Part shown: positions 16,205-57,565 of the stretch, in pieces
Numbering within the stretch: the first letter of the stretch is position 1
How the letters are laid out: each line of letters opens with the position of its first letter
Source: Candidatus Latescibacterota bacterium
Lineage (GTDB): Bacteria > Latescibacterota > UBA2968 > GCA-2709665
Reading direction: 5' to 3'
Length of the DNA stretch: 64,000 bases
NCBI GenBank assembly: GCA_965219995.1
Contig: CBDCOX010000002.1
Span: 4,736,001 to 4,800,000, forward strand
Translations under genes and position numbers: made by a program
The notes under the pieces: generated by a model
The model's database searches: none
The model's input: the letters and a program-made list of their open reading frames with translations, nothing else
What the model was told of the DNA's origin: nothing

Positions 16205-16342
16205 AAAGCGGTGAGAGGGTAGAGGGGAGACGGGAGACGTGAGATATTGTGTGCCCCGTGTGGTTTCACATCTTGCCAGAGGCATTAAGGTAGAATCAAT
16301 CGGGCAAGGACGTCTTCTACCGTCTACCGTCTTACGTCTCAC
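16205..16342. repeat. Dispersed palindromic intergenic repeat (MITE/RU-like), copy A
   Basis: Core gagatattgtgtgcccc...tagaatcaatcgggcaaggacgtcttctaccgtctacc is the reverse complement of copies B and C. Its end contains the TGA stop of the upstream acylase gene. Confidence 0.85.
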
Positions 16343-22483: not shown

Positions 22484-24118
22484 ATGCGGTCCATATCAGA
22501 GTTTCTGAGCGGCAAGACGCTGTTCGTGACGGGCGCAACGGGGTTTCTGGCGAAGGGATTCGTGGAGAAGATCCTGTTTTCGTCCCCCGAAGTGGTGCGG
22601 ATCTATCTCCTGATCCGGCCTCGGTCGCGTTCCAACGGACAGATCATTTCCGAAGCGGAACGGCTGGAGTCGGAGGTGCTTCAGTCCCGCGCGTTCGCGA
22701 GGCTCCGCGAGAAGTGGGGCGCCGCGTTTCAATCGGTGATGGCGGAAAAGATCGAACCGGTGGCCGGCGATCTGACCGAAGACGGTCTTGGGATTTCCTC
22801 GGGGCAGCGCGAGCGCCTCATTGAGGAGGTTGATTTCGTCGTCAACTTTGCCGGGACCGTGGTCTTCGACGAGCCCATCGACAGCGCGCTCGAGCAGAAC
22901 ACGATGGGCGCCGCCCGGGTATTGGCGTTCGCGAAGTCCTGCCGGAAAGCCGCGCTCGTTCATGTGTCGACGGCGTACGTCAGCGGGACCCGGACCGGCC
23001 AAATTCCCGAGGCCCCGTTTCCCCAGGACCGGAGCGTAACGGACCTCATCAACGGAAGCGCGGCAGGATTCGACCTCCAGGGCGAGATCGACGCCATTCG
23101 GACCTTTGCGAAGAAGGTGAAGGCGGCGTCCGACGAGCCCGAATTGGAGGCGGCGTTCCTGAAGCAGCTCCGGCGCCAGGACCGCGGCAAACGCGTGACC
23201 GACTATCGGAAGGCGCACCAGGTCGAGGCCCTCCGCGAGCGCTGGATCCGGAAGCAGCTGGTGGATGAAGGGATGCGGCGGGCCAGGCGCTTCGGATGGA
23301 ATGACAGCTATACGCTCACGAAGGCGATGGGCGAGCAGTTGATCGTAAAGTCGCGCGGCGATCTGCCGACGGCCATCGTCCGGCCGGCGATCGTGGAAAG
23401 CAGTCTCGAGGACCCGGAGCCGGGCTGGGTCGAGGACCTGAAAGTCGCCGATCCGCTGATCGTCCACTACGGCAAGGGCCGGCTGTCGAATTTTCCCATC
23501 GATCCCGGGATCGTCCTGGACATTATCCCCGTGGATGTACTGAACAATGCCGTCGCCGCAGTGCTTCCTCAGGTACACGGATCGCGCGAGATGAAGGTCT
23601 ACCACGTGGCGTCGGGCTCGCAGAATCCGGTCCGGGCGAGCGAAGTGGTGGAACATGTTTACGGGTACTTCAAGACCTCGCCCCTGCGCGACCGGAAAGG
23701 GCAGCCCATCGAAGTTCGGCCCTGGCAGTTCATCAGCAGACGCCGGTTCTCCTGTATGGTCCTGTTGAAATACAAGCTTCCGCTGCGCCTCCTCAAGGCA
23801 GCCGTAGACTATTTGCCAACCCGGTGGGTTTCCCGGTACAGGCGCCGGGTGATGGTAATGGAAGCCATACTGGTCAGGCTCGAGTCCCTGCTCGACATTT
23901 ATTGCGGGTACACCCATCTGGACTGTGAATTCGAAACGGAGAATACCCGCCGGTTGTTCCAGGCGCTGAATCCTGAGGACCAGAGGGTCTTCAACTTCGA
24001 CGTGACGCGCATCAACTGGCGGGAATACTTCCAGGAGATCCACATTCCGGGATTGAAACACCACGTGTTGAAAGAAGGGGACGGGGCGGTTTCCACGCTG
24101 ACCGCCGGGGCCGTTTGA
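22484..24118 (+). CDS. Fatty acyl-CoA/ACP reductase, alcohol-forming (FAR; NAD_binding_4 plus male-sterility C-terminal domain)
   Basis: 'GKTLFVTGATGFLAKGFVEKIL', 'HVSTAYV', catalytic 'YTLTKAMGE', 'RPAIVESSLEDPEPGW', C-terminal 'FNFDVTRINWREYF...HIPGL'. Confidence 0.92.
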   Translation: MRSISEFLSGKTLFVTGATGFLAKGFVEKILFSSPEVVRIYLLIRPRSRSNGQIISEAERLESEVLQSRAFARLREKWGAAFQSVMAEKIEPVAGDLTEDGLGISSGQRERLIEEVDFVVNFAGTVVFDEPIDSALEQNTMGAARVLAFAKSCRKAALVHVSTAYVSGTRTGQIPEAPFPQDRSVTDLINGSAAGFDLQGEIDAIRTFAKKVKAASDEPELEAAFLKQLRRQDRGKRVTDYRKAHQVEALRERWIRKQLVDEGMRRARRFGWNDSYTLTKAMGEQLIVKSRGDLPTAIVRPAIVESSLEDPEPGWVEDLKVADPLIVHYGKGRLSNFPIDPGIVLDIIPVDVLNNAVAAVLPQVHGSREMKVYHVASGSQNPVRASEVVEHVYGYFKTSPLRDRKGQPIEVRPWQFISRRRFSCMVLLKYKLPLRLLKAAVDYLPTRWVSRYRRRVMVMEAILVRLESLLDIYCGYTHLDCEFETENTRRLFQALNPEDQRVFNFDVTRINWREYFQEIHIPGLKHHVLKEGDGAVSTLTAGAV

Positions 24119-24139
24119 CCGGCTTGCGGGGTTTAACGA

Positions 24140-26080
24140 ATGAATCGGAACCAATCAGTTCCCGTGCACCGAATGTTGTTGCAGGATCCCGCCCGGTTGG
24201 GAGCCGCTTACGACCAGGCGGCCACGGAGCTGATCGCGGCCGTTGAGCCCGAGGGCTATTTCACGGGGTGGACGGCCGGGGATCTGGCGTGGCCGGCTGG
24301 CGGCGCCGGCGAGGTCGGCCTCCAGGGTTTGCGCAAGCGGGCCCGGATCGTGGACGCGATCTACCAGGGTGTACCCGGTTTGCGGGACAGCCGCCTGAAG
24401 GAGGCGCACGACCATTTCGCCGAACTGACGCCGGCTTACCACGAAGGAAACCGCATCTACCTGCGGCTCAGGGATGAATTCGTTGGCAGCGGCGCCGGAA
24501 CCGGCCCGGATTTTCTGAAACTGTACCAGTCCCTGTACGTGGATGCGCTCGCGAAAGGGGACGATTTTTCGCCGGACCCTGCCGAAACCGCACTGGCGCG
24601 AGCCCGGATCTCCCGGGTGCCGCTGTCGCACGCCAGGGCCGTTGCGGAAGCGCTGCCCAGCGTGACGACTGACGACGATCCGCGCTGGAAGGTGGAATAC
24701 GCCTGTACGGTAGATGGCGAGACCTGGAATGGAACCCTCCGGGAACTCCTTGAAGACGTGGCGCAGCGGACCCTGCACTACATCGCGGCCGGAGAGCTTC
24801 TCGCCACGCGCTACAACACCTACAATAACCTGGGCTGGTTTGGCAGTTCGGTGTGGAAGGTGGTCGCGGAAGCCGACGTGCGACTGTGTCGGATGGAGGA
24901 ATCGGATCCCGCACGCTCGGAGAGGCTAAAGGCCGACGTTGACCTGACACGCAGCATGCTCGTGGAGTTCCTGGCGGCGCACCGGGAGGACCCCGCCCGG
25001 CTCAGGCCTGAGAACTACTGGTACGGGCAACCGTACAGCTATCTGACGCGGGACATGATCGACGTGAGCGTCCGGATCGCTGAGGGCGTGAATTCGGCGG
25101 CAAGGGACCTGGACGGGGTGGCGGAGATGGCGCTCCCGCCCCTGCTGGCGGGCACCCACGTCGGCCGGTTTCTGGACTACGCCCACGTGGGCGTGACCGA
25201 GGAACTGACGTCCTTCCAGCGAAAGATCCGGATGTTGCGGTGGGCGAGTCGGTGCTGGCGGGTGGGAAAGCGCCGCCGGCAAATCGCGGACGAGAACCTG
25301 GGGCCGTCACAGCGGCACGAACGCGCGTGGGAGGTCTGGCTGGATTGGTCCCGGGACACGATGAACGCCTTCGGAATCCGGCTGGAAGTGACGATCGCAC
25401 CCTTGTTCCGGACGCTGGTCCGTGAAATGGACCTTGCAGCCGGCGGTCAGAGGATACTGTTCCTGCCGTCGCACCAGAGCATGCTCGAGCATTTCGTGGT
25501 GTTTTCCGTCTTCAACGATCCGGTGTTCCTGGATGCGATGGGTTGGGATCGGTCCCGCCCGGTCGTCCAGCTCGCCCGAACGGGACTGGCGAAGTCGACG
25601 TCGGTGAAGATCGGGTCCCATGAGATCAGTATCTTCGGGATGTCACCGGACAAGTTCGACCGGATGTTCGAGACGGTCGACGGTTTCATCACCCGTGACA
25701 GCGTGGATATCTCATCCCATACGATTCCGCGCATCCTGCAGGAGATGGAGCGCCGTCCGGGTGTGATCTATCCGATGGGCACGACGGCTTCGTTCGACGT
25801 GCAGTTGTTCCCGCTGCAGCACGCGCTTTTCGCGAAACTGCCCCAGGACGTCGTGATGGTCCCGATCGTGTTTCGGGGCAGCCACGCGCTCTGGCCCAAG
25901 TGTCCGGCGCGCAATCTGAATATCAATCCCGGCGTGATCGAGGCGGTGATCCTGCCCCCGATGCCGGGAGAGACCACGTTGCTGCCGCGCCGCCGGTCCC
26001 TGCGCATCCAGCTGGAGGCCGCCAATCTGCTTCAGGCGGTACATATTTCAAACCTGCTGAATCCGGAACCCTCGCGATGA
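24140..26080 (+). CDS. Divergent glycerolipid acyltransferase (PlsC/LPLAT-like C-terminal domain) with a large unassigned N-terminal domain; candidate DHAP acyltransferase
   Basis: Block I 'LFLPSHQSMLEH' (HX4E instead of HX4D), block III 'IYPMGT' (cf. FPEGT), block IV 'MVPIVFRG'. The role is inferred from context. Confidence 0.65.
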   Translation: MNRNQSVPVHRMLLQDPARLGAAYDQAATELIAAVEPEGYFTGWTAGDLAWPAGGAGEVGLQGLRKRARIVDAIYQGVPGLRDSRLKEAHDHFAELTPAYHEGNRIYLRLRDEFVGSGAGTGPDFLKLYQSLYVDALAKGDDFSPDPAETALARARISRVPLSHARAVAEALPSVTTDDDPRWKVEYACTVDGETWNGTLRELLEDVAQRTLHYIAAGELLATRYNTYNNLGWFGSSVWKVVAEADVRLCRMEESDPARSERLKADVDLTRSMLVEFLAAHREDPARLRPENYWYGQPYSYLTRDMIDVSVRIAEGVNSAARDLDGVAEMALPPLLAGTHVGRFLDYAHVGVTEELTSFQRKIRMLRWASRCWRVGKRRRQIADENLGPSQRHERAWEVWLDWSRDTMNAFGIRLEVTIAPLFRTLVREMDLAAGGQRILFLPSHQSMLEHFVVFSVFNDPVFLDAMGWDRSRPVVQLARTGLAKSTSVKIGSHEISIFGMSPDKFDRMFETVDGFITRDSVDISSHTIPRILQEMERRPGVIYPMGTTASFDVQLFPLQHALFAKLPQDVVMVPIVFRGSHALWPKCPARNLNINPGVIEAVILPPMPGETTLLPRRRSLRIQLEAANLLQAVHISNLLNPEPSR

Positions 26081-26170
26081 CGAACCGGACCGGAATGTTC
26101 GGACACTTTGTACGAAATCCCAGGGCCGCGTGCCTCGGGCCCCGCCCGTTGAGCTAACCAGGAATACGTT

Positions 26171-28018
26171 ATGCCTGAATGGGGAATAGCAACGCTTGCC
26201 GCAGCGGCCATTCTGCTGGTTGCGCTTCTGCCCAGACGGAGGGGGTCCGGAAGCGAACCGGACGAGTTTTTCGATCATTCCGAAGCGGAACGGTTTCCCC
26301 ACAAGTGGGGATACACGGACACGCGGTTCGAGTTTGTGGACGATCGGACGCTGAAGGTGACCGGCAGCCGGTACCCCATCTCGGGATACCGCATGCCGTT
26401 TCTGATCGACTTTGTGGAGGACGTGCTGGGCATTACGATCCGGAGGGAAGACGCGTTTGCCGAGCGCGCCGATATTGAAGCGCAGGAACCGAACGTGGAC
26501 GCGGCGTTCCGGAGTGCGATGAAGAAACGGTTCGGAGGCGGGCGGGTTTCATTCGATCCTGAAGCCAGGCTGATGCACAGCCACGGACAGCTGAGCGTGG
26601 AGGAAGTGTACCGCGTGATGTATGGAGATTCGCTTCCCAGGCTGGTCGACCTGGTGTTCTATCCCGAGGAGGAGGCCGACGTCAAGGCCATGATCGACCT
26701 CGCCAACGTGCATAACGTGTGCCTGGTGCCCTATGGCGGCGGGACGAACGTGAGCGGCGCGCTGGCGTGTCCGGCCGAGGAGCGGCGCACGATCGTTTCC
26801 GTGGATATGCGACGGATGGACCGGGTGGTGTGGATTGACGAGGCCAATCTTCAGGCCTGTGTCGAGGCCGGGATTTCGGGTAAGGCGATGGAGAGGGCGC
26901 TGGGAGATCGGGGGTACACGTCCGGACACGATCCCGACAGCGTGGAATTGTCCACGATGGGCGGCTGGATCTCGACAAATGCGAGCGGGATGAAGAAGAA
27001 CCGGTACGGCAATATCGAAGACATCGTGCTCGAGGCCACGCTGGTGACGCCCACCGGCGAAATCGCAACCCGCCAGGTCACGCCCAGAAACTCCACGGGC
27101 GTCCAGCCGCGGGGATTGCTGTTCGGAAGCGAAGGCAATTTCGGCATTATCACCACGGCGGTGATCAAGATTCATCCGATCCCCGAGGCGCGCAAGTACG
27201 GGGCGCTCGTTTTCCCGGCTTTCGAGAAGGGCGTTTCTTATCTGAAGGCGCTCCGGCAGACCGGCATGCTGCCCGCGAGCATCCGCCTGGTCAACAACAA
27301 CGAATTCCGGTTCGGACAGGCCCTGAAAGGGGAGCCGTCGTTCCTGAAGGGCGTCAAGGAAAAGATCCAGAAATTCGTCCTGTTGAAGGTGCTGGGTTTC
27401 GATCCGATGAAGATGGGCGCGTGCACCATCGTGATGGAGGGCACGCACGACGAAGTCCGCCAGCAGGAACGCACCATCTTCAGCCTGGCGAAGAAATACG
27501 GCGCCAAAAGCGCGGGCGCCAGCAACGGCAAGCGAGGATATTCGCTGACGTTCGGCATCGCCTATATTCGCGATTTCCTGAACCAATACGGCATTCTGGG
27601 CGAAACCTTCGAGACGTCTGTCCCCTGGGACCGGATCCACCGGGTTTGCAGTGCGGTATCGGAGGAACTGGTGACGCAGGCCGCCGCGCACAACGTGACG
27701 GGGAAACCCTACCTCTCGTACCGGGTGACGCAGACCTATCATACGGGCGTCTGCATTTATTTCACGATGGGTATTTACGGCAAGGGCCTGGAAAAGCCCG
27801 GCCGGACGTTTCACGCGATCGAACACCGGCTTCGGCAGGTGATCCTGGACAATGGAGGGTCTCTGTCGCACCACCACGGCGTTGGAAAGGTGAGGAAGGA
27901 CTTCCTGCCGCAGATCCAGAGCGATAACAGCATCCAGGTGATGCGTCAGGCCAAGAACGCGATGGATCCGAACAACATCTTCGGGATCCGGAATGGCGTT
28001 TTCGGGGAAATGGACTGA
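26171..28018 (+). CDS. agpS: Alkyl-dihydroxyacetonephosphate synthase (FAD-linked, VAO family)
   Basis: 'WGYTD', 'PYGGGTNVS', 'GHDPDSVELSTMGGWISTNASGMKKNRYGNIED', 'GSEGNFGII', 'SIRL', 'IAYIRD', 'FETSVPW', 'RVTQTYHTGVCIYF', 'GGSLSHHHGVGK'. These match AGPS motifs as I recall them from the eukaryotic enzymes. Confidence 0.92.
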   Translation: MPEWGIATLAAAAILLVALLPRRRGSGSEPDEFFDHSEAERFPHKWGYTDTRFEFVDDRTLKVTGSRYPISGYRMPFLIDFVEDVLGITIRREDAFAERADIEAQEPNVDAAFRSAMKKRFGGGRVSFDPEARLMHSHGQLSVEEVYRVMYGDSLPRLVDLVFYPEEEADVKAMIDLANVHNVCLVPYGGGTNVSGALACPAEERRTIVSVDMRRMDRVVWIDEANLQACVEAGISGKAMERALGDRGYTSGHDPDSVELSTMGGWISTNASGMKKNRYGNIEDIVLEATLVTPTGEIATRQVTPRNSTGVQPRGLLFGSEGNFGIITTAVIKIHPIPEARKYGALVFPAFEKGVSYLKALRQTGMLPASIRLVNNNEFRFGQALKGEPSFLKGVKEKIQKFVLLKVLGFDPMKMGACTIVMEGTHDEVRQQERTIFSLAKKYGAKSAGASNGKRGYSLTFGIAYIRDFLNQYGILGETFETSVPWDRIHRVCSAVSEELVTQAAAHNVTGKPYLSYRVTQTYHTGVCIYFTMGIYGKGLEKPGRTFHAIEHRLRQVILDNGGSLSHHHGVGKVRKDFLPQIQSDNSIQVMRQAKNAMDPNNIFGIRNGVFGEMD

Positions 28019-28028
28019 CGATAGATGA

Positions 28029-28217
28029 AGACCTGAAAACGGTGAGACGTAAGTCACGGTAGACGGTAGTTAAAGGCGGTGAGACGTAAAACGGTAGACG
28101 GTAGAAGACGTCCTTGCCCGATTGATTCTACCTTAATGCCTCTGGCAAGATGTGAAACCACACGGGGCACACAATATCTCACGTCTCCCGTCTAACGTCT
28201 ACCCGTTCTTCAGGTCT
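28029..28217. repeat. Dispersed palindromic intergenic repeat, copy B
   Basis: AGACGGT/AGACGTR heptamer arms around the shared core. Outer inverted repeat agacctgaaaacgg / ccgttcttcaggtct. Confidence 0.88.
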
Positions 28218-28257
28218 ATGTGTGAGCGGAATTTGACTCTGACCTGGAAGGTCACGT

Positions 28258-29064
28258 ATGTTCAACGGTAAAGTCGTCGCGATCACCGGTGCGTCGTCGG
28301 GTCTGGGCGCAACGCTGGCTCTGGCGTTCGCGGAAGAAGGGGCGGACCTGGCCCTTTTCGCGCTCGACGACGGCGTCCACGAAACGGCGGCTGAATGCCG
28401 GGAGCGCGGCAGCCGCGTGACGACCGCCACGGGCGACGTAGGAAAACCGGCGGACTGCGAGGGCTGGATCGACGCCGCGGTATCCGGACTGGGAGGCGTG
28501 GACTACCTGGTTGCGTGCGCGGGAATCAGCATGTGGGCGCGGTTCGACGAGGTGGAGGACCTGGCGATTTTTCGCAGGTTGATGGAAACGAACTACCTGG
28601 GTATCGTGCACTGCGTGTACTACGCGCTGCCTCATCTGAAGGCACGCGACGGGATGGTGGTGGCCATTTCCTCCATCCAGGGCAAGATCGGGGTTCCCCT
28701 GCACACGGGTTACGTGGCGTCCAAGCACGCCGTTCAGGGGTTCTTCGAGTCGCTGCGGACAGAACTGCTGGACACCGGCGTGGACGTGCTGACCGTGCTG
28801 CCACACTGGCTGCGCGGGACCAATCTGCGCAAGGCGGCCTTCGGCAAGGATGGCGGGGCTCTCGGCGGATCGAGCCGGAAGCACAGCAGGGAGTCGATAT
28901 CCCTGGACGACGCAAGCACGGCCATCATCGACGCGATGAAGAAGAGGAAGCGGGAACTGATCATCCCGTTCAAGCTCAGATTTCTGCCGTGGCTGCACCT
29001 GATCAATCCGAAGATCGTCGAATATCTGGTCACACGCGGGGTGGCGAAGCAGGAAAAAGGGTAG
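28258..29064 (+). CDS. SDR oxidoreductase, DHRS7B/PexRAP-like; candidate acyl/alkyl-DHAP reductase
   Basis: 'VVAITGASSGLG', 'ISSIQGK', catalytic 'YVASKHAVQGFFESLRTEL'. The SDR call is certain; the subfamily is inferred from motif resemblance and context. Confidence 0.8.
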   Translation: MFNGKVVAITGASSGLGATLALAFAEEGADLALFALDDGVHETAAECRERGSRVTTATGDVGKPADCEGWIDAAVSGLGGVDYLVACAGISMWARFDEVEDLAIFRRLMETNYLGIVHCVYYALPHLKARDGMVVAISSIQGKIGVPLHTGYVASKHAVQGFFESLRTELLDTGVDVLTVLPHWLRGTNLRKAAFGKDGGALGGSSRKHSRESISLDDASTAIIDAMKKRKRELIIPFKLRFLPWLHLINPKIVEYLVTRGVAKQEKG

Positions 29065-57344: not shown

Positions 57345-57565
57345 AAGGCGGGGAGACGGAAGAGGGTAGACGGTAGTTAAAGGCGGTGAGACGTAAGACG
57401 GTAGACGGTAGAAGACGTCCTTGCCCGATTGATTCTACCTTAATGCCTCTGGCAAGATGTAAAACCACGCGGGGCACACAATATCTCACGTCTCCCGTCT
57501 AACGTCTACCCGTTCTTCAGGCATTCATTGCCTCTCCCCTCTTACGTCTATCGTCTCCCCGCCTT
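57345..57565. repeat. Dispersed palindromic intergenic repeat, copy C
   Basis: Core nearly identical to copy B. Bounded by a perfect 14-bp inverted repeat AAGGCGGGGAGACG / CGTCTCCCCGCCTT. Confidence 0.88.

What the first reader, a model, noticed from the sequence alone, without database searches (positions are those of the whole stretch)
22484..29064. Four-gene bacterial cluster mirroring the complete eukaryotic peroxisomal ether-lipid pathway (FAR, acyltransferase, AGPS, DHRS7B-like SDR)
Seen: four consecutive plus-strand genes, namely a stand-alone alcohol-forming FAR, a PlsC-like acyltransferase, an AGPS with intact FAD and HHH motifs, and an SDR. Established: in animals FAR1 makes the fatty alcohol, GNPAT makes acyl-DHAP, AGPS swaps acyl for alkyl, and an acyl/alkyl-DHAP reductase (PexRAP/DHRS7B proposed) yields 1-O-alkyl-G3P. 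Characterised bacterial ether routes are mostly different (myxobacterial ElbD NRPS-like enzyme, anaerobic PlsA/PlsR and Ger), although agpS homologs are known in myxobacteria. Inference: this is a compact operon for alkyl-glycerol ether lipids with the genes in pathway order, relevant to the sources of environmental or sponge alkylglycerols and to the origin of the eukaryotic pathway.
Basis: partly seen in the sequence, partly recalled or inferred. Interest (0 to 1): 0.92.

Follow-up and report, generated by a model that had tools for sequence, protein, structure and literature searches.

The report
Bacterial animal-style ether-lipid operon
An uncultured sponge- and coral-associated bacterium carries four adjacent genes that most likely make ether-linked membrane lipids the way animal peroxisomes do, and one of them, an acyltransferase that databases do not recognise, may also have replaced the usual bacterial start of phospholipid synthesis in its whole class.

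Summary

- **AGPS** is unambiguous: E 9.6e-151 to solved guinea-pig AGPS, against 8.5e-26 to D-lactate dehydrogenase.
- **FAR** is eukaryote-type, with NAD_binding_4 plus Sterile domains.
- **AT** has no Pfam or PDB hit itself. It belongs to an isolated ~650-aa family with an HX4(D/E) motif.

The colinear cluster recurs in 35 of 66 judgeable related loci, mostly Latescibacterota MAGs.

It is modular. FAR-AT and AGPS-SDR are the conserved pairs. The SDR ortholog occurs only in AGPS-bearing genomes (120 of 124, against 0 of 44).

In the window's class (132 genomes), PlsY, GpsA and PlsB were found in 0 and PlsX in 1. AT is in 130 and AGPS in 123. So AT may be the housekeeping sn-1 acyltransferase.

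An AGPS operon is already known in Myxococcus (AGPS, FAR-AT fusion, NAD-epimerase), and agps hits in Latescibacterota were reported in 2026. I therefore call this a new variant of a known kind.

This scan reached the same reading earlier on other DNA (e1-3114939, e1-777527). No structure tool was available, and there are no lipid data.

The parts
22484..24118 (+). Stand-alone fatty acyl-CoA/ACP reductase (FAR), eukaryote-type two-domain architecture. Proposed source of the fatty alcohol.
   Evidence: PF07993 at 6.5e-64 (residues 15-356) and PF03015 Sterile at 2.3e-16 (457-531). PDB 7eoz at 3.1e-89. TGATGFLAK and YTLTK motifs. It is the only strong PF07993 match in the genome.
24140..25201 (+). 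N-terminal ~355-residue domain of the orphan acyltransferase. Function unknown.
   Evidence: No Pfam or PDB hit. Many invariant residues across 37 homologs. The language-model look-up of a homolog's residues 1-415 gave only noise, scores 0.76-0.78. The boundary at residue 355 is my reading of the alignment, not a structural result.
25202..26080 (+). C-terminal acyltransferase domain of the orphan AT. Proposed DHAP (and possibly G3P) sn-1 acyltransferase.
   Evidence: H445 in 37/37 with D (27) or E (10) at +5. R480 37/37, YPxGT548 37/37, P575 36/37, and R579, G580, H582 each 37/37. 11 of 37 members hit PF01553, best 8.9e-08. hhalign to an ElbD-like AT domain aligns blocks III-IV at probability 37%.
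26171..28018 (+). Alkyl-dihydroxyacetone-phosphate synthase (AGPS), with a hydrophobic N-terminal stretch at residues 4-21.
   Evidence: 4bby at 9.6e-151 and 2uuu at 1.3e-82. PF01565 plus PF02913. HHH loop, ASIRL and RVTQTY segments conserved.
28019..28257 (.). AGPS-SDR spacer, occupied by a MITE-like dispersed repeat of about 175 nt. It is an insertion, not part of the pathway.
   Evidence: 199 blastn hits of this spacer in the genome. A DNA contig of run X6 joins 28020 to 28258, skipping 237 nt. It folds into a long hairpin, -79.2 kcal/mol, z -2.25.
28258..29064 (+). Classical SDR. Proposed NAD(P)H-dependent alkyl/acyl-DHAP reductase.
   Evidence: PF00106 at 1.5e-43. NF004825 at 281 bits, over its cut-off. 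The ortholog is found in 120 of 124 AGPS-bearing and 0 of 44 AGPS-lacking genomes of the phylum. It stays next to AGPS (17 nt away) even where FAR and AT lie elsewhere.

Best explanation
The four genes form an operon for the DHAP (animal peroxisome-type) route to 1-O-alkyl-sn-glycerol-3-phosphate. The proposed steps are:
1. FAR reduces a fatty acyl thioester to a fatty alcohol. This is inferred from the family.
2. The orphan acyltransferase esterifies DHAP to 1-acyl-DHAP. This is inferred from its position and from AGPS's need for that substrate. It is the weakest step.
3. AGPS swaps the acyl group for the alcohol, giving 1-O-alkyl-DHAP. This is strongly inferred from close homology with conserved catalytic segments.
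4. The SDR reduces the keto group to give 1-O-alkyl-G3P, and probably also reduces acyl-DHAP to lysophosphatidate. This is inferred from its strict linkage to AGPS.
5. The single PlsC-like enzyme encoded elsewhere would then acylate sn-2.

No PEDS1/CarF was found, so the products would be alkyl (plasmanyl) lipids, not vinyl-ether lipids.

The whole class lacks PlsX, PlsY, PlsB and GpsA but keeps one copy of this AT. The AT is therefore probably also the class's housekeeping sn-1 acyltransferase.
For: Gene identities.

Co-conservation:
- In 79 loci fetched with the AT profile, all four genes are present in the same order in 40.
- Under stricter adjacency rules the count is 35 of the 66 loci with enough flank.
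- Median gaps are 64, 94.5 and 110 nt.

Phylum scan of 168 genomes (class of the window = f1-f4 plus G000 = 132 genomes):
- AT 130/132 in the class and 2/36 outside it.
- AGPS 123/132 and 1/36.
- SDR ortholog 119/132 and 1/36, and only in AGPS-bearing genomes.
- FAR domain 128/132 and 3/36.
- PlsY 0/132 and 29/36.
- GpsA 0/132 and 29/36.
- PlsX 1/132 and 33/36.
- PlsB 0/168, with the E. coli control positive.

Own genome (98.6% complete, 2 contigs):
- One AT copy and one PF01553 gene.
- HMMs built from 7 in-phylum PlsY and 7 GpsA sequences find nothing among 59,769 six-frame ORFs. Best E-values are 0.74 and 0.051.
- No ElbD-like second FAR and no PlsA/Ger domain PF09989.

AGPS-SDR linkage:
- By my hand count of the coordinate tables, the SDR lies within 2 kb downstream of AGPS in about 110 of the 120 genomes that have both.
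- The pair stays adjacent in f4 genomes where FAR and AT are elsewhere.

Two genomes that carry the cluster together with PlsY (G039, G173) show that the AT can also be an add-on tied to AGPS.

Contigs from three metatranscriptome runs (two studies), at 90-95% identity, lie on all four genes. This is weak evidence.
Against: - The AT shows no detectable similarity to GNPAT, PlsB or any solved acyltransferase. The profile search against PDB gave nothing credible. The profile search against 1.84 billion representatives gave 66 hits, all from the family itself or its fragments, plus two weak hits at 4e-4 and 7e-4. Its substrate is therefore pure inference.
- The AT persists without AGPS or the SDR in 8 in-class genomes. 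For two of these (G066, G079) the AT sits at or near a contig end (coordinates), so their AGPS may simply be unassembled. It also persists in G013, G001, G004 and G005. It therefore cannot be AGPS-specific, and in those genomes it cannot depend on this reductase.
- 26 of 66 judgeable loci have the AT alone.
- Glycerol kinase is present (670 bits), so G3P is not unavailable.
- The gene losses map to essentially one clade, so the complementary pattern reflects few independent events.
- The PEDS1 and WS/DGAT searches had no positive control.
- The RNA contigs bridge no gene boundary and could be DNA carry-over.
- No sigma-70-like promoter or clear terminator defines the operon.
- There are no lipid data for any member.
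Confidence: 0.72

Rival explanations
1. The AT is only a housekeeping glycerol-3-phosphate acyltransferase, a functional replacement of PlsY or PlsB. It does not make acyl-DHAP. Its place between FAR and AGPS reflects co-regulation of lipid genes, and acyl-DHAP comes from another enzyme or from a side activity.
For: The AT is single-copy and near-universal in a class without PlsX, PlsY or PlsB. It persists in genomes without AGPS or the SDR. Glycerol kinase is present. 26 of 66 loci have the AT alone.
Against: GpsA, the normal biosynthetic source of G3P, is absent from 132 of 132 class genomes. No other candidate for acyl-DHAP synthesis was seen in the window's genome, which has one PF01553 gene. 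The AT travels with FAR-AGPS-SDR into genomes that keep PlsY (G039, G173). FAR-AT adjacency holds in 40 of 66 loci.
Confidence: 0.14
2. The chemistry is as proposed, but the products are minor signalling or stress lipids, as in Myxococcus development, and not bulk membrane lipids. The initiation of ordinary phospholipid synthesis would then rest on an enzyme not yet recognised.
For: In M. xanthus the AGPS route is described as producing minor amounts of ether lipid (passage of bioRxiv 10.64898/2026.06.23.733905 read). Some class members lack AGPS and the SDR.
Against: AGPS is in 123 of 132 class genomes and the AT in 130 of 132. No known sn-1 acyltransferase system was found in any of them.
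Confidence: 0.1
3. FAR and the AT make wax esters or other fatty-alcohol esters, with the AT acting as an alcohol acyltransferase. AGPS and the SDR would be an unrelated neighbouring pair.
For: FAR-AT occurs without AGPS nearby in 4 of 66 loci and in G013. The AT's acceptor is unknown.
Against: AGPS requires a fatty alcohol and acyl-DHAP, which are exactly what the two upstream genes could supply. The four-gene order is kept in 35 of 66 loci down to about 46% AT identity. The AT is universal in f4 genomes, where FAR sits inside an ElbD-like protein elsewhere in the genome. The AT carries glycerolipid-type HX4D blocks.
Confidence: 0.03
4. The 'AGPS' is a glycolate or D-lactate-type flavoprotein oxidase, and the cluster has nothing to do with ether lipids.
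For: TIGR00387 GlcD matches at 1.1e-47, far below its cut-off (162.9 against 567.9 bits).
Against: Solved AGPS matches at 9.6e-151 over nearly the full length, including the N-terminal part that D-lactate dehydrogenases lack. D-LDH matches at 8.5e-26 over residues 159-369 only. The HHH loop is invariant.
Confidence: 0.01

Closest known systems
[quoted passage not shown]
   Same: It is a bacterial operon that combines AGPS with a FAR activity, an acyltransferase activity and a nucleotide-dependent reductase. It is the oxygen-compatible DHAP route to alkyl ether lipids.
   Different: Here FAR and the AT are separate genes. The AT belongs to a different, isolated family with a 355-residue unknown N-domain, and it is not detectable as GNPAT. 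The reductase is a classical SDR rather than an epimerase/dehydratase-type protein. The gene order is FAR-AT-AGPS-SDR. The host class lacks PlsX, PlsY, GpsA and PlsB. No CarF/PEDS1 was found (no positive control).
Mammalian peroxisomal ether-lipid pathway: FAR1, GNPAT, AGPS, acyl/alkyl-DHAP reductase DHRS7B (pathway as summarised; DHRS7B from the search-listing abstract of PMC13200781)
   Same: The same four enzyme activities are proposed. AGPS is a close homolog (506.5 bits to guinea-pig AGPS). FAR has the same two-domain architecture. FAR and the acyltransferase are separate proteins, as in Holozoa.
   Different: The AT is not recognisably GNPAT. Orthology of the SDR to DHRS7B was not tested. 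There are no peroxisomal targeting signals or C-terminal FAR membrane anchor (recalled feature of FAR1; none is visible). The genes are clustered in an operon.
ElbD / elbB-E ether-lipid cluster of M. xanthus (multidomain FAR, acyl-CoA synthetase, carrier, AGPAT protein)
   Same: The window's FAR is 40-48% identical to the N-terminal FAR part of ElbD-like proteins in sister genomes of the phylum.
   Different: The window's FAR is stand-alone (544 aa, no AMP-binding, carrier or PF01553 domain). The window's genome has no ElbD-like protein.
PlsX/PlsY and PlsB, the known bacterial systems for the first acylation of glycerol-3-phosphate
   Same: If the housekeeping reading is right, the orphan AT fills the same metabolic position, sn-1 acylation.
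   Different: It is an unrelated or undetectably related sequence family with a different architecture. The likely acceptor is DHAP rather than G3P, given the absence of GpsA.

Membership tests
AGPS (alkylglycerone-phosphate synthase, EC 2.5.1.26) | Full-length similarity to solved AGPS, including the N-terminal part absent from other VAO-family flavoenzymes | tested here: met
   4bby at E 9.6e-151, query 44-608 against chain 94-656. 2uuu at 1.3e-82. The next non-AGPS hit is at 8.5e-26 over residues 159-369 only.
AGPS (alkylglycerone-phosphate synthase, EC 2.5.1.26) | FAD-binding PCMH domain plus cap domain | tested here: met
   PF01565 at 1.4e-37 and PF02913 at 9.6e-37.
AGPS (alkylglycerone-phosphate synthase, EC 2.5.1.26) | HHH loop and the catalytic Tyr and Arg segments (residue roles recalled from the AGPS structure papers, not from a call) | tested here: met
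   SLSHHHGVGK, RVTQTY and ASIRL align to the same segments of 4bby. H567, H568, H569, R372 and Y523 are invariant in 17 of 17 sequences.
AGPS (alkylglycerone-phosphate synthase, EC 2.5.1.26) | Acyl-for-alkyl exchange on acyl-DHAP | not testable with these tools
   Needs an enzyme assay.
Alcohol-forming fatty acyl reductase (FAR, eukaryote-type) | NAD_binding_4 Rossmann domain followed by the Sterile (FAR_C) domain | tested here: met
   PF07993 at 6.5e-64 and PF03015 at 2.3e-16. 7eoz at 3.1e-89.
Alcohol-forming fatty acyl reductase (FAR, eukaryote-type) | Nucleotide-binding glycine motif and YxxxK active site | tested here: met
   TGATGFLAK at residues 16-24 and YTLTK are visible in the translation.
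Alcohol-forming fatty acyl reductase (FAR, eukaryote-type) | Four-electron reduction to the alcohol rather than the aldehyde | not testable with these tools
   Inferred from the family only.
GPAT/AGPAT (PlsC, PF01553) acyltransferase superfamily | Significant match to the family profile | tested here: inconclusive
   The window protein has no Pfam hit even at E 10. 11 of 37 family members match PF01553, best 8.9e-08. One homolog carries a precomputed PF01553 and one a JGI name. hhalign probability is 37% against an ElbD-like AT domain and 0.3% against the genome's own PlsC. The Atlas look-up of homolog P0061 gave PF01553 clusters at 0.80, a lead only.
GPAT/AGPAT (PlsC, PF01553) acyltransferase superfamily | HX4D catalytic dyad (block I) and blocks II-IV | tested here: met
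   H445 37/37. Position +5 is D in 27 and E in 10, with E in the window. R480 37/37. YPxGT548 37/37, with T549 in place of the usual R. P575 36/37. R579 and G580 37/37.
GPAT/AGPAT (PlsC, PF01553) acyltransferase superfamily | Alpha/beta acyltransferase fold | not testable with these tools
GNPAT / DHAP acyltransferase | Sequence relationship to GNPAT or to the AT part of FARAT | tested here: not met
   The profile of 37 sequences finds nothing outside its own family among 1.84 billion representatives, except two weak hits at 4e-4 and 7e-4. It finds nothing credible in the PDB. This lowers 'is a GNPAT', not 'works like one'.
GNPAT / DHAP acyltransferase | DHAP as acyl acceptor | not testable with these tools
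   Inferred from gene order, from AGPS's substrate need and from the absence of GpsA.
Acyl/alkyl-DHAP reductase (DHRS7B/PexRAP, yeast Ayr1 type) | Classical SDR with TGxxxGxG and a Ser-Tyr-Lys triad | tested here: met
   PF00106 at 1.5e-43. TGASSGLG, SSIQG and YVASK in the translation.
Acyl/alkyl-DHAP reductase (DHRS7B/PexRAP, yeast Ayr1 type) | Orthology to DHRS7B or Ayr1 | not tested
   No reference sequence was available to the tools. The best PDB hits are clavaldehyde dehydrogenase (5.5e-25), an acetoin reductase and 11-beta-HSD1 (about 1e-22), which does not discriminate.
Acyl/alkyl-DHAP reductase (DHRS7B/PexRAP, yeast Ayr1 type) | Functional coupling to AGPS | tested here: met
   The ortholog is in 120 of 124 AGPS-bearing and 0 of 44 AGPS-lacking genomes. 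It is adjacent to AGPS even where FAR and the AT are elsewhere.
Myxococcus-type AGPS operon (MXAN_1676-1674) | AGPS gene in an operon with FAR and acyltransferase functions | tested here: met
Myxococcus-type AGPS operon (MXAN_1676-1674) | FAR and AT fused in one FARAT protein with a GNPAT-like AT | tested here: not met
   They are two ORFs separated by 21 nt. The AT family is not GNPAT-like by sequence.
Myxococcus-type AGPS operon (MXAN_1676-1674) | Third gene of the NAD-dependent epimerase/dehydratase family | tested here: not met
   The fourth gene here is a classical short-chain dehydrogenase (PF00106), with no Epimerase-family hit listed.

The most novel reading that the evidence does not exclude
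A whole class of Latescibacterota has discarded the canonical bacterial entry into phospholipid synthesis. GpsA makes G3P and PlsX/PlsY or PlsB acylates it. The class instead starts all its glycerolipids from DHAP, as peroxisomes do. An orphan acyltransferase family with a novel 355-residue N-domain would make acyl-DHAP. AGPS would convert part or most of it to alkyl-DHAP, and a dedicated SDR would reduce both. If so, these abundant sponge and coral symbionts would have membranes built largely on sn-1 ether lipids. They would also be a major bacterial source of the monoalkyl glycerol ethers found in sponges and sediments.
Probability: 0.4. Interest if true: 0.85.

Novelty: new variant of a known kind. 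Interest (0 to 1): 0.68.

Why it matters
**Source of environmental ether lipids.** Non-isoprenoid alkyl glycerol ethers are widespread in sponges, sediments and hot springs, and their bacterial makers are largely unknown. This cluster gives a concrete, oxygen-compatible and easily testable gene set in a phylum that is a regular member of sponge and coral microbiomes.

**A candidate new first-step enzyme.** The acyltransferase is a candidate for a third kind of enzyme for the first acylation step of bacterial phospholipid synthesis, after PlsB and PlsX/PlsY. It would show that the acyl-DHAP pathway, so far a eukaryotic trait, can be the main route in a bacterium.

**Surveys may undercount.** Because profile searches do not see this AT, surveys that score genomes for 'FAR + GNPAT + AGPS' will undercount such bacteria. 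One example is the GTDB survey in PMC13012113, whose supplementary lists I could not read. That undercount bears on arguments about which bacteria could have donated the pathway to eukaryotes.

Tried and rejected
1. **Rosetta-stone fusion.** The 'longer' search found one 1250-aa protein, P0088, with an AT part plus AGPS domains. Pairwise alignment shows AT homology ending near residue 575, then about 85 residues rich in Arg, Pro and Gly, then AGPS from residue 661. I read this as a frameshifted gene call on a single contig and do not use it as evidence.
2. **Structure of the AT.** Structure prediction accepted no jobs. Complex prediction for the AT domain with AGPS was not available. The fold and the N-domain therefore remain unexamined.
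3. **Atlas look-ups.** The window's AT is not held. Homolog P0061 gave PF01553 clusters at 0.80. Its N-terminal 415 residues gave only phage-protein noise at 0.76-0.78. These are leads only.
4. **An alternative reductase next to the AT in AT-only loci.** SDRs near the AT in L052, L053 and L027 are only 33-40% identical to one another. They are conserved only within close relatives, so there is no consistent second reductase.
5. **Neighbours of stand-alone ATs and of the f4 AGPS-SDR pairs.** These are unrelated genes: M81 peptidase, NfeD/SPFH, UvrD, TPR/FG-GAP proteins.
6. **Promoter, terminator and Rfam scans.** Counts were near the shuffle expectation (3 against 2.2, and 11 against 7.1). There was no Rfam match at E 0.01.
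7. **RNA evidence.** All runs were available only as contigs, at 90-95% identity, with none bridging two genes. This does not demonstrate an operon transcript. Parts of the stretch without RNA cover are not interpreted.
8. **In-frame TAG in FAR.** The TAG flagged inside FAR matches of one genus is the natural stop codon read through by the aligner.

Full report
**Observation**

They are separated by 21, 90 and 239 nt.

The neighbours are unrelated. Upstream lie a penicillin amidase and a glutamine amidotransferase-like gene. Downstream, on the opposite strand, lie a dethiobiotin-synthase-like gene (PF13500) and a class-III aminotransferase. The cluster therefore has clear borders.

Simple promoter and terminator scans were near their shuffle expectations, and no Rfam family matched.

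**The four proteins**

- **Gene 1 (FAR).** It has the two-domain architecture of eukaryote-type fatty acyl reductases: NAD_binding_4 at 6.5e-64 and Sterile at 2.3e-16. It matches the solved 'Fatty acyl-CoA reductase' 7eoz at 3.1e-89. It shows the glycine-rich nucleotide motif and YTLTK.
- **Gene 3 (AGPS).** It is AGPS beyond reasonable doubt. Guinea-pig AGPS matches at 9.6e-151 (506.5 bits) over query residues 44-608. Dictyostelium AGPS matches at 1.3e-82. The best non-AGPS flavoenzyme, D-lactate dehydrogenase, reaches only 8.5e-26 over the FAD domain. The HHH loop and the ASIRL and RVTQTY segments are conserved and invariant in 17 aligned bacterial AGPS.
- **Gene 4 (SDR).** It is a classical SDR: adh_short at 1.5e-43, and NCBIfam NF004825 at 281 bits against a cut-off of 215. 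The cofactor and Ser-Tyr-Lys motifs are intact. Its best solved relatives are clavaldehyde dehydrogenase, an acetoin reductase and 11-beta-HSD1 at about 1e-22 to 1e-25. They do not tell its substrate.

**The acyltransferase is the odd one**

The window protein has no Pfam hit even at E 10, no NCBIfam hit and no PDB hit at E 10.

A search of 5.8 billion clustered proteins returned 86 relatives, nearly all 630-690 aa. They are named 'hypothetical protein' in MAGs labelled Latescibacteria, Gemmatimonadetes and the like. One carries a JGI name '1-acyl-sn-glycerol-3-phosphate acyltransferase' and one a precomputed PF01553.

A profile of 37 of them (alignment A1) gave these results:

- It finds nothing credible in the PDB.
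- Among 1.84 billion representatives it finds only 66 hits: seven full-length clusters of the family itself, fragments of it, and two weak hits at 4e-4 and 7e-4.
- Scanned one by one, 11 of the 37 members touch PF01553, the best at 8.9e-08.

The C-terminal ~290 residues carry the glycerolipid acyltransferase blocks:

- H445 is invariant, with D (27 of 37) or E (10 of 37, including the window) five residues on.
- R480 is invariant.
- YPxGT548 is invariant, with T in place of the usual R after it.
- P575 is present in 36 of 37.
- R579, G580 and H582 are invariant.

hhalign aligns blocks III-IV to the acyltransferase domain of an ElbD-like protein at probability 37%. It does not align convincingly to the genome's own PlsC.

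The N-terminal ~355 residues are strongly conserved but match nothing.

But this is a separate, isolated family, and no relationship to GNPAT could be shown. No structure prediction could be run.

**Co-conservation**

The AT profile fetched 79 loci from one-genome-per-species contigs. By their record titles most are Latescibacterota MAGs. tblastn with the four window proteins gave:

| Genes found in the locus | Loci (of 79) |
|---|---|
| All four, in the same order | 40 |
| AT only | 29 |
| FAR + AT | 4 |
| FAR + AT + AGPS | 3 |
| FAR + AT + a weak, non-adjacent SDR | 3 |

I then applied strict rules: same strand, correct order, limited gaps and minimum identities. I counted only the 66 loci with enough flank:

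| Arrangement | Loci (of 66) |
|---|---|
| FAR-AT-AGPS-SDR | 35 |
| AT alone | 26 |
| FAR-AT | 4 |
| FAR-AT-AGPS | 1 |

The 13 loci without enough flank split 3, 3, 3 and 4 in the same order of classes. Median gaps are 64, 94.5 and 110 nt.

The cluster is therefore conserved but modular.

- In sister genomes where the AT stands alone, AGPS lies elsewhere with the SDR ortholog 17 nt behind it.
- In those genomes FAR is the N-terminal part of a 1200-1500-aa ElbD-like protein. Its domains are FAR, Sterile, AMP-binding, sometimes a carrier, then PF01553 or HAD.

**Phyletic pattern**

I scanned all 168 genomes held for the window's phylum. The window's class is families f1-f4 plus the window's genome, 132 genomes. 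The other families hold 36.

| Gene | In the class (of 132) | Outside the class (of 36) |
|---|---|---|
| AT | 130 | 2 |
| AGPS (E <= 1e-100) | 123 | 1 |
| SDR ortholog (E <= 1e-45) | 119 | 1 |
| FAR domain | 128 | 3 |
| PlsY | 0 | 29 |
| GpsA | 0 | 29 |
| PlsX | 1 | 33 |
| PlsB | 0 | 0 (E. coli control positive) |

The SDR ortholog occurs only in AGPS-bearing genomes: 120 of 124, against 0 of 44 without AGPS. The four AGPS-bearing genomes without the SDR are two with a divergent (45-46% identical) AGPS and two fragmented assemblies.

By my hand count of the coordinate tables, the SDR lies within 2 kb downstream of AGPS in about 110 of the 120 genomes with both. Six of the ten exceptions are split over contigs.

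In the window's own genome (98.6% complete, two contigs):

- There is one AT and one PF01553 gene, a 233-aa PlsC-like ORF.
- There is no PlsY or PlsX.
- HMMs that I built from seven in-phylum PlsY and seven GpsA sequences found nothing in 59,769 six-frame ORFs with HMMER's filters off. The best E-values were 0.74 and 0.051.
- The genome also lacks an ElbD-like protein and the PlsA/Ger domain PF09989.
- PF10520 (PEDS1/CarF) and PF03007 (wax synthase) gave no match, but neither search had a positive control.

**What this means**

AGPS needs a fatty alcohol and 1-acyl-DHAP, and its product needs a keto-reductase. The three partners sit beside it in that order, and the reductase never occurs without it. 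I therefore hold the DHAP route to 1-O-alkyl-G3P as the function of the cluster, at confidence about 0.72.

The AT step is the inferred one. The AT is single-copy and near-universal in a class that has none of the known sn-1 acyltransferases and no biosynthetic G3P dehydrogenase. It is thus the only visible candidate for starting glycerolipid synthesis at all, and DHAP is the natural acceptor.

Two genomes carry the cluster together with PlsY: G039 in the phylum, and G173, reached through locus L055. They show that the AT can also be an accessory tied to AGPS. That fits a history in which an ether-lipid cassette came first and the canonical system was lost afterwards.

**Evidence that cuts the other way**

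- The AT persists without AGPS and without this SDR in eight class genomes. For two of them (G066, G079) the AT sits at or near a contig end (coordinates), so their AGPS may be unassembled. It also persists in G013 and in G001, G004 and G005, which also lack PlsY. It therefore has an AGPS-independent job and, there, a different or no reductase.
- No consistent second reductase was found near it.
- Glycerol kinase is present in the window's genome, so G3P can be made from glycerol.
- The losses of plsX, plsY and gpsA map to essentially one clade, so the neat complementarity reflects few evolutionary events.
- The apparent AT-AGPS fusion protein is most likely a frameshifted gene call.
- There are no lipid measurements for any of these organisms.

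**Habitat and expression**

The 6.9-kb stretch is held at half or more of its sampled words by 11 of the 24 listed runs. They include runs labelled sponge metagenome and marine metagenome.

One sponge run (X6) gave 250 laid contig pieces, 46 of them at 99% identity or more. Three metatranscriptome runs from two studies gave 23, 18 and 18 contig pieces, nearly all 90-95% alike. They fall on all four genes, but none bridges a gene boundary. The tool warns that DNA can be present in such libraries, so this is only a weak hint that relatives transcribe the cluster.

**Literature**

- The M. xanthus three-gene operon (AGPS, FAR-GNPAT fusion, NAD-dependent epimerase/dehydratase) and its role in ether-lipid synthesis are described in bioRxiv 10.1101/2025.10.10.681575 (Introduction and the section on the other enzymes read).
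- Its PNAS version is PMC13012113 (passages and the PEDS1 section read). That paper searched GTDB with eukaryotic queries and found all four plasmalogen enzymes in 73 genomes, 61 of them Myxococcota. The five other phyla are named only in supplements that I could not open. 'Latescibacter' does not occur in its main text.
- bioRxiv 10.64898/2026.06.23.733905 (outline and passages read) reports agps and 'standalone elbD' hits in sponge Latescibacterota MAGs. It calls the phylum newly linked to ether lipids. The passages I read describe neither this operon nor the AT. Its supplementary table 2 may hold more.
- Searches for 'Latescibacter' + 'PlsY' (2 papers; the one I opened, only lists the phylum in a table) and for acyl-DHAP/PlsY/GpsA found no description of the missing canonical genes.

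**Earlier notes of this scan**

After forming my reading I looked these up. Two earlier agents reached the same conclusion on other Latescibacterota DNA. One is e1-3114939, a close relative sharing 57 of 110 words with this AT. The other is e1-777527, which is marked 'part of it fell' without saying which part. These are not independent evidence. Everything stated above was tested here.

**Verdict**

This is a new variant of a known kind of system. The variant features are a split FAR, an orphan acyltransferase family, a dedicated SDR, and a host class that appears to have given up the canonical bacterial start of phospholipid synthesis.

Noticed in passing
window 28019-28257 (further copies at about window 57349-57521 and 16217-16342): The AGPS-SDR spacer holds a MITE-like element of about 175 nt with terminal inverted repeats. 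The spacer has 199 blastn hits in this 5.4-Mb genome. Many copies fall between genome positions 3.0 and 3.5 Mb. A relative's DNA contig lacks exactly these 237 nt.
   Followed up: partly
L028:13758-14351, L037:13745-14338, L039:13918-15050, L032:13167-13775: In several relatives the same AGPS-SDR (or AT-AGPS) spacer holds small inserted genes: a DUF6036 nucleotidyltransferase, DUF433 and DUF4276. They look like mobile toxin-antitoxin-type or defence modules. The spacers of this operon seem to be insertion hot spots.
   Followed up: partly
L101:6383-10078, L102:4861-9081 (-), L103:3552-7877 (-): Sister lineages carry ElbD-like giants. Two have FAR, Sterile, AMP-binding (and in one a carrier domain) followed by PF01553. 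A shorter form ends in a HAD phosphatase instead. The two examined loci with a HAD part or HAD gene (L101, L103) have a SIS/PGI-like gene upstream and a Zn-dependent alcohol dehydrogenase downstream.
   Followed up: partly
P0088 (public protein, 1250 aa): An apparent AT-AGPS fusion whose junction is about 85 residues of Arg/Pro/Gly-rich sequence. It is most likely a frameshift in the assembly, not a natural fusion.
   Followed up: yes
G150:C8:68072-69016: This is the only PlsX match in the 132 genomes of the class. It sits on a separate contig of an assembly with 7% estimated contamination, so it is possibly foreign DNA.
   Followed up: no
L026:7959-9662, and G099, G043, G156: A second, divergent AGPS type (45-46% identical) occurs in a few genomes. 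In L026 it is followed by a different SDR (27% identical) instead of the usual ortholog.
   Followed up: no
window 26171-26240: The AGPS begins with a hydrophobic stretch (residues 4-21) that the solved eukaryotic AGPS alignment does not cover. It may be a membrane anchor.
   Followed up: no
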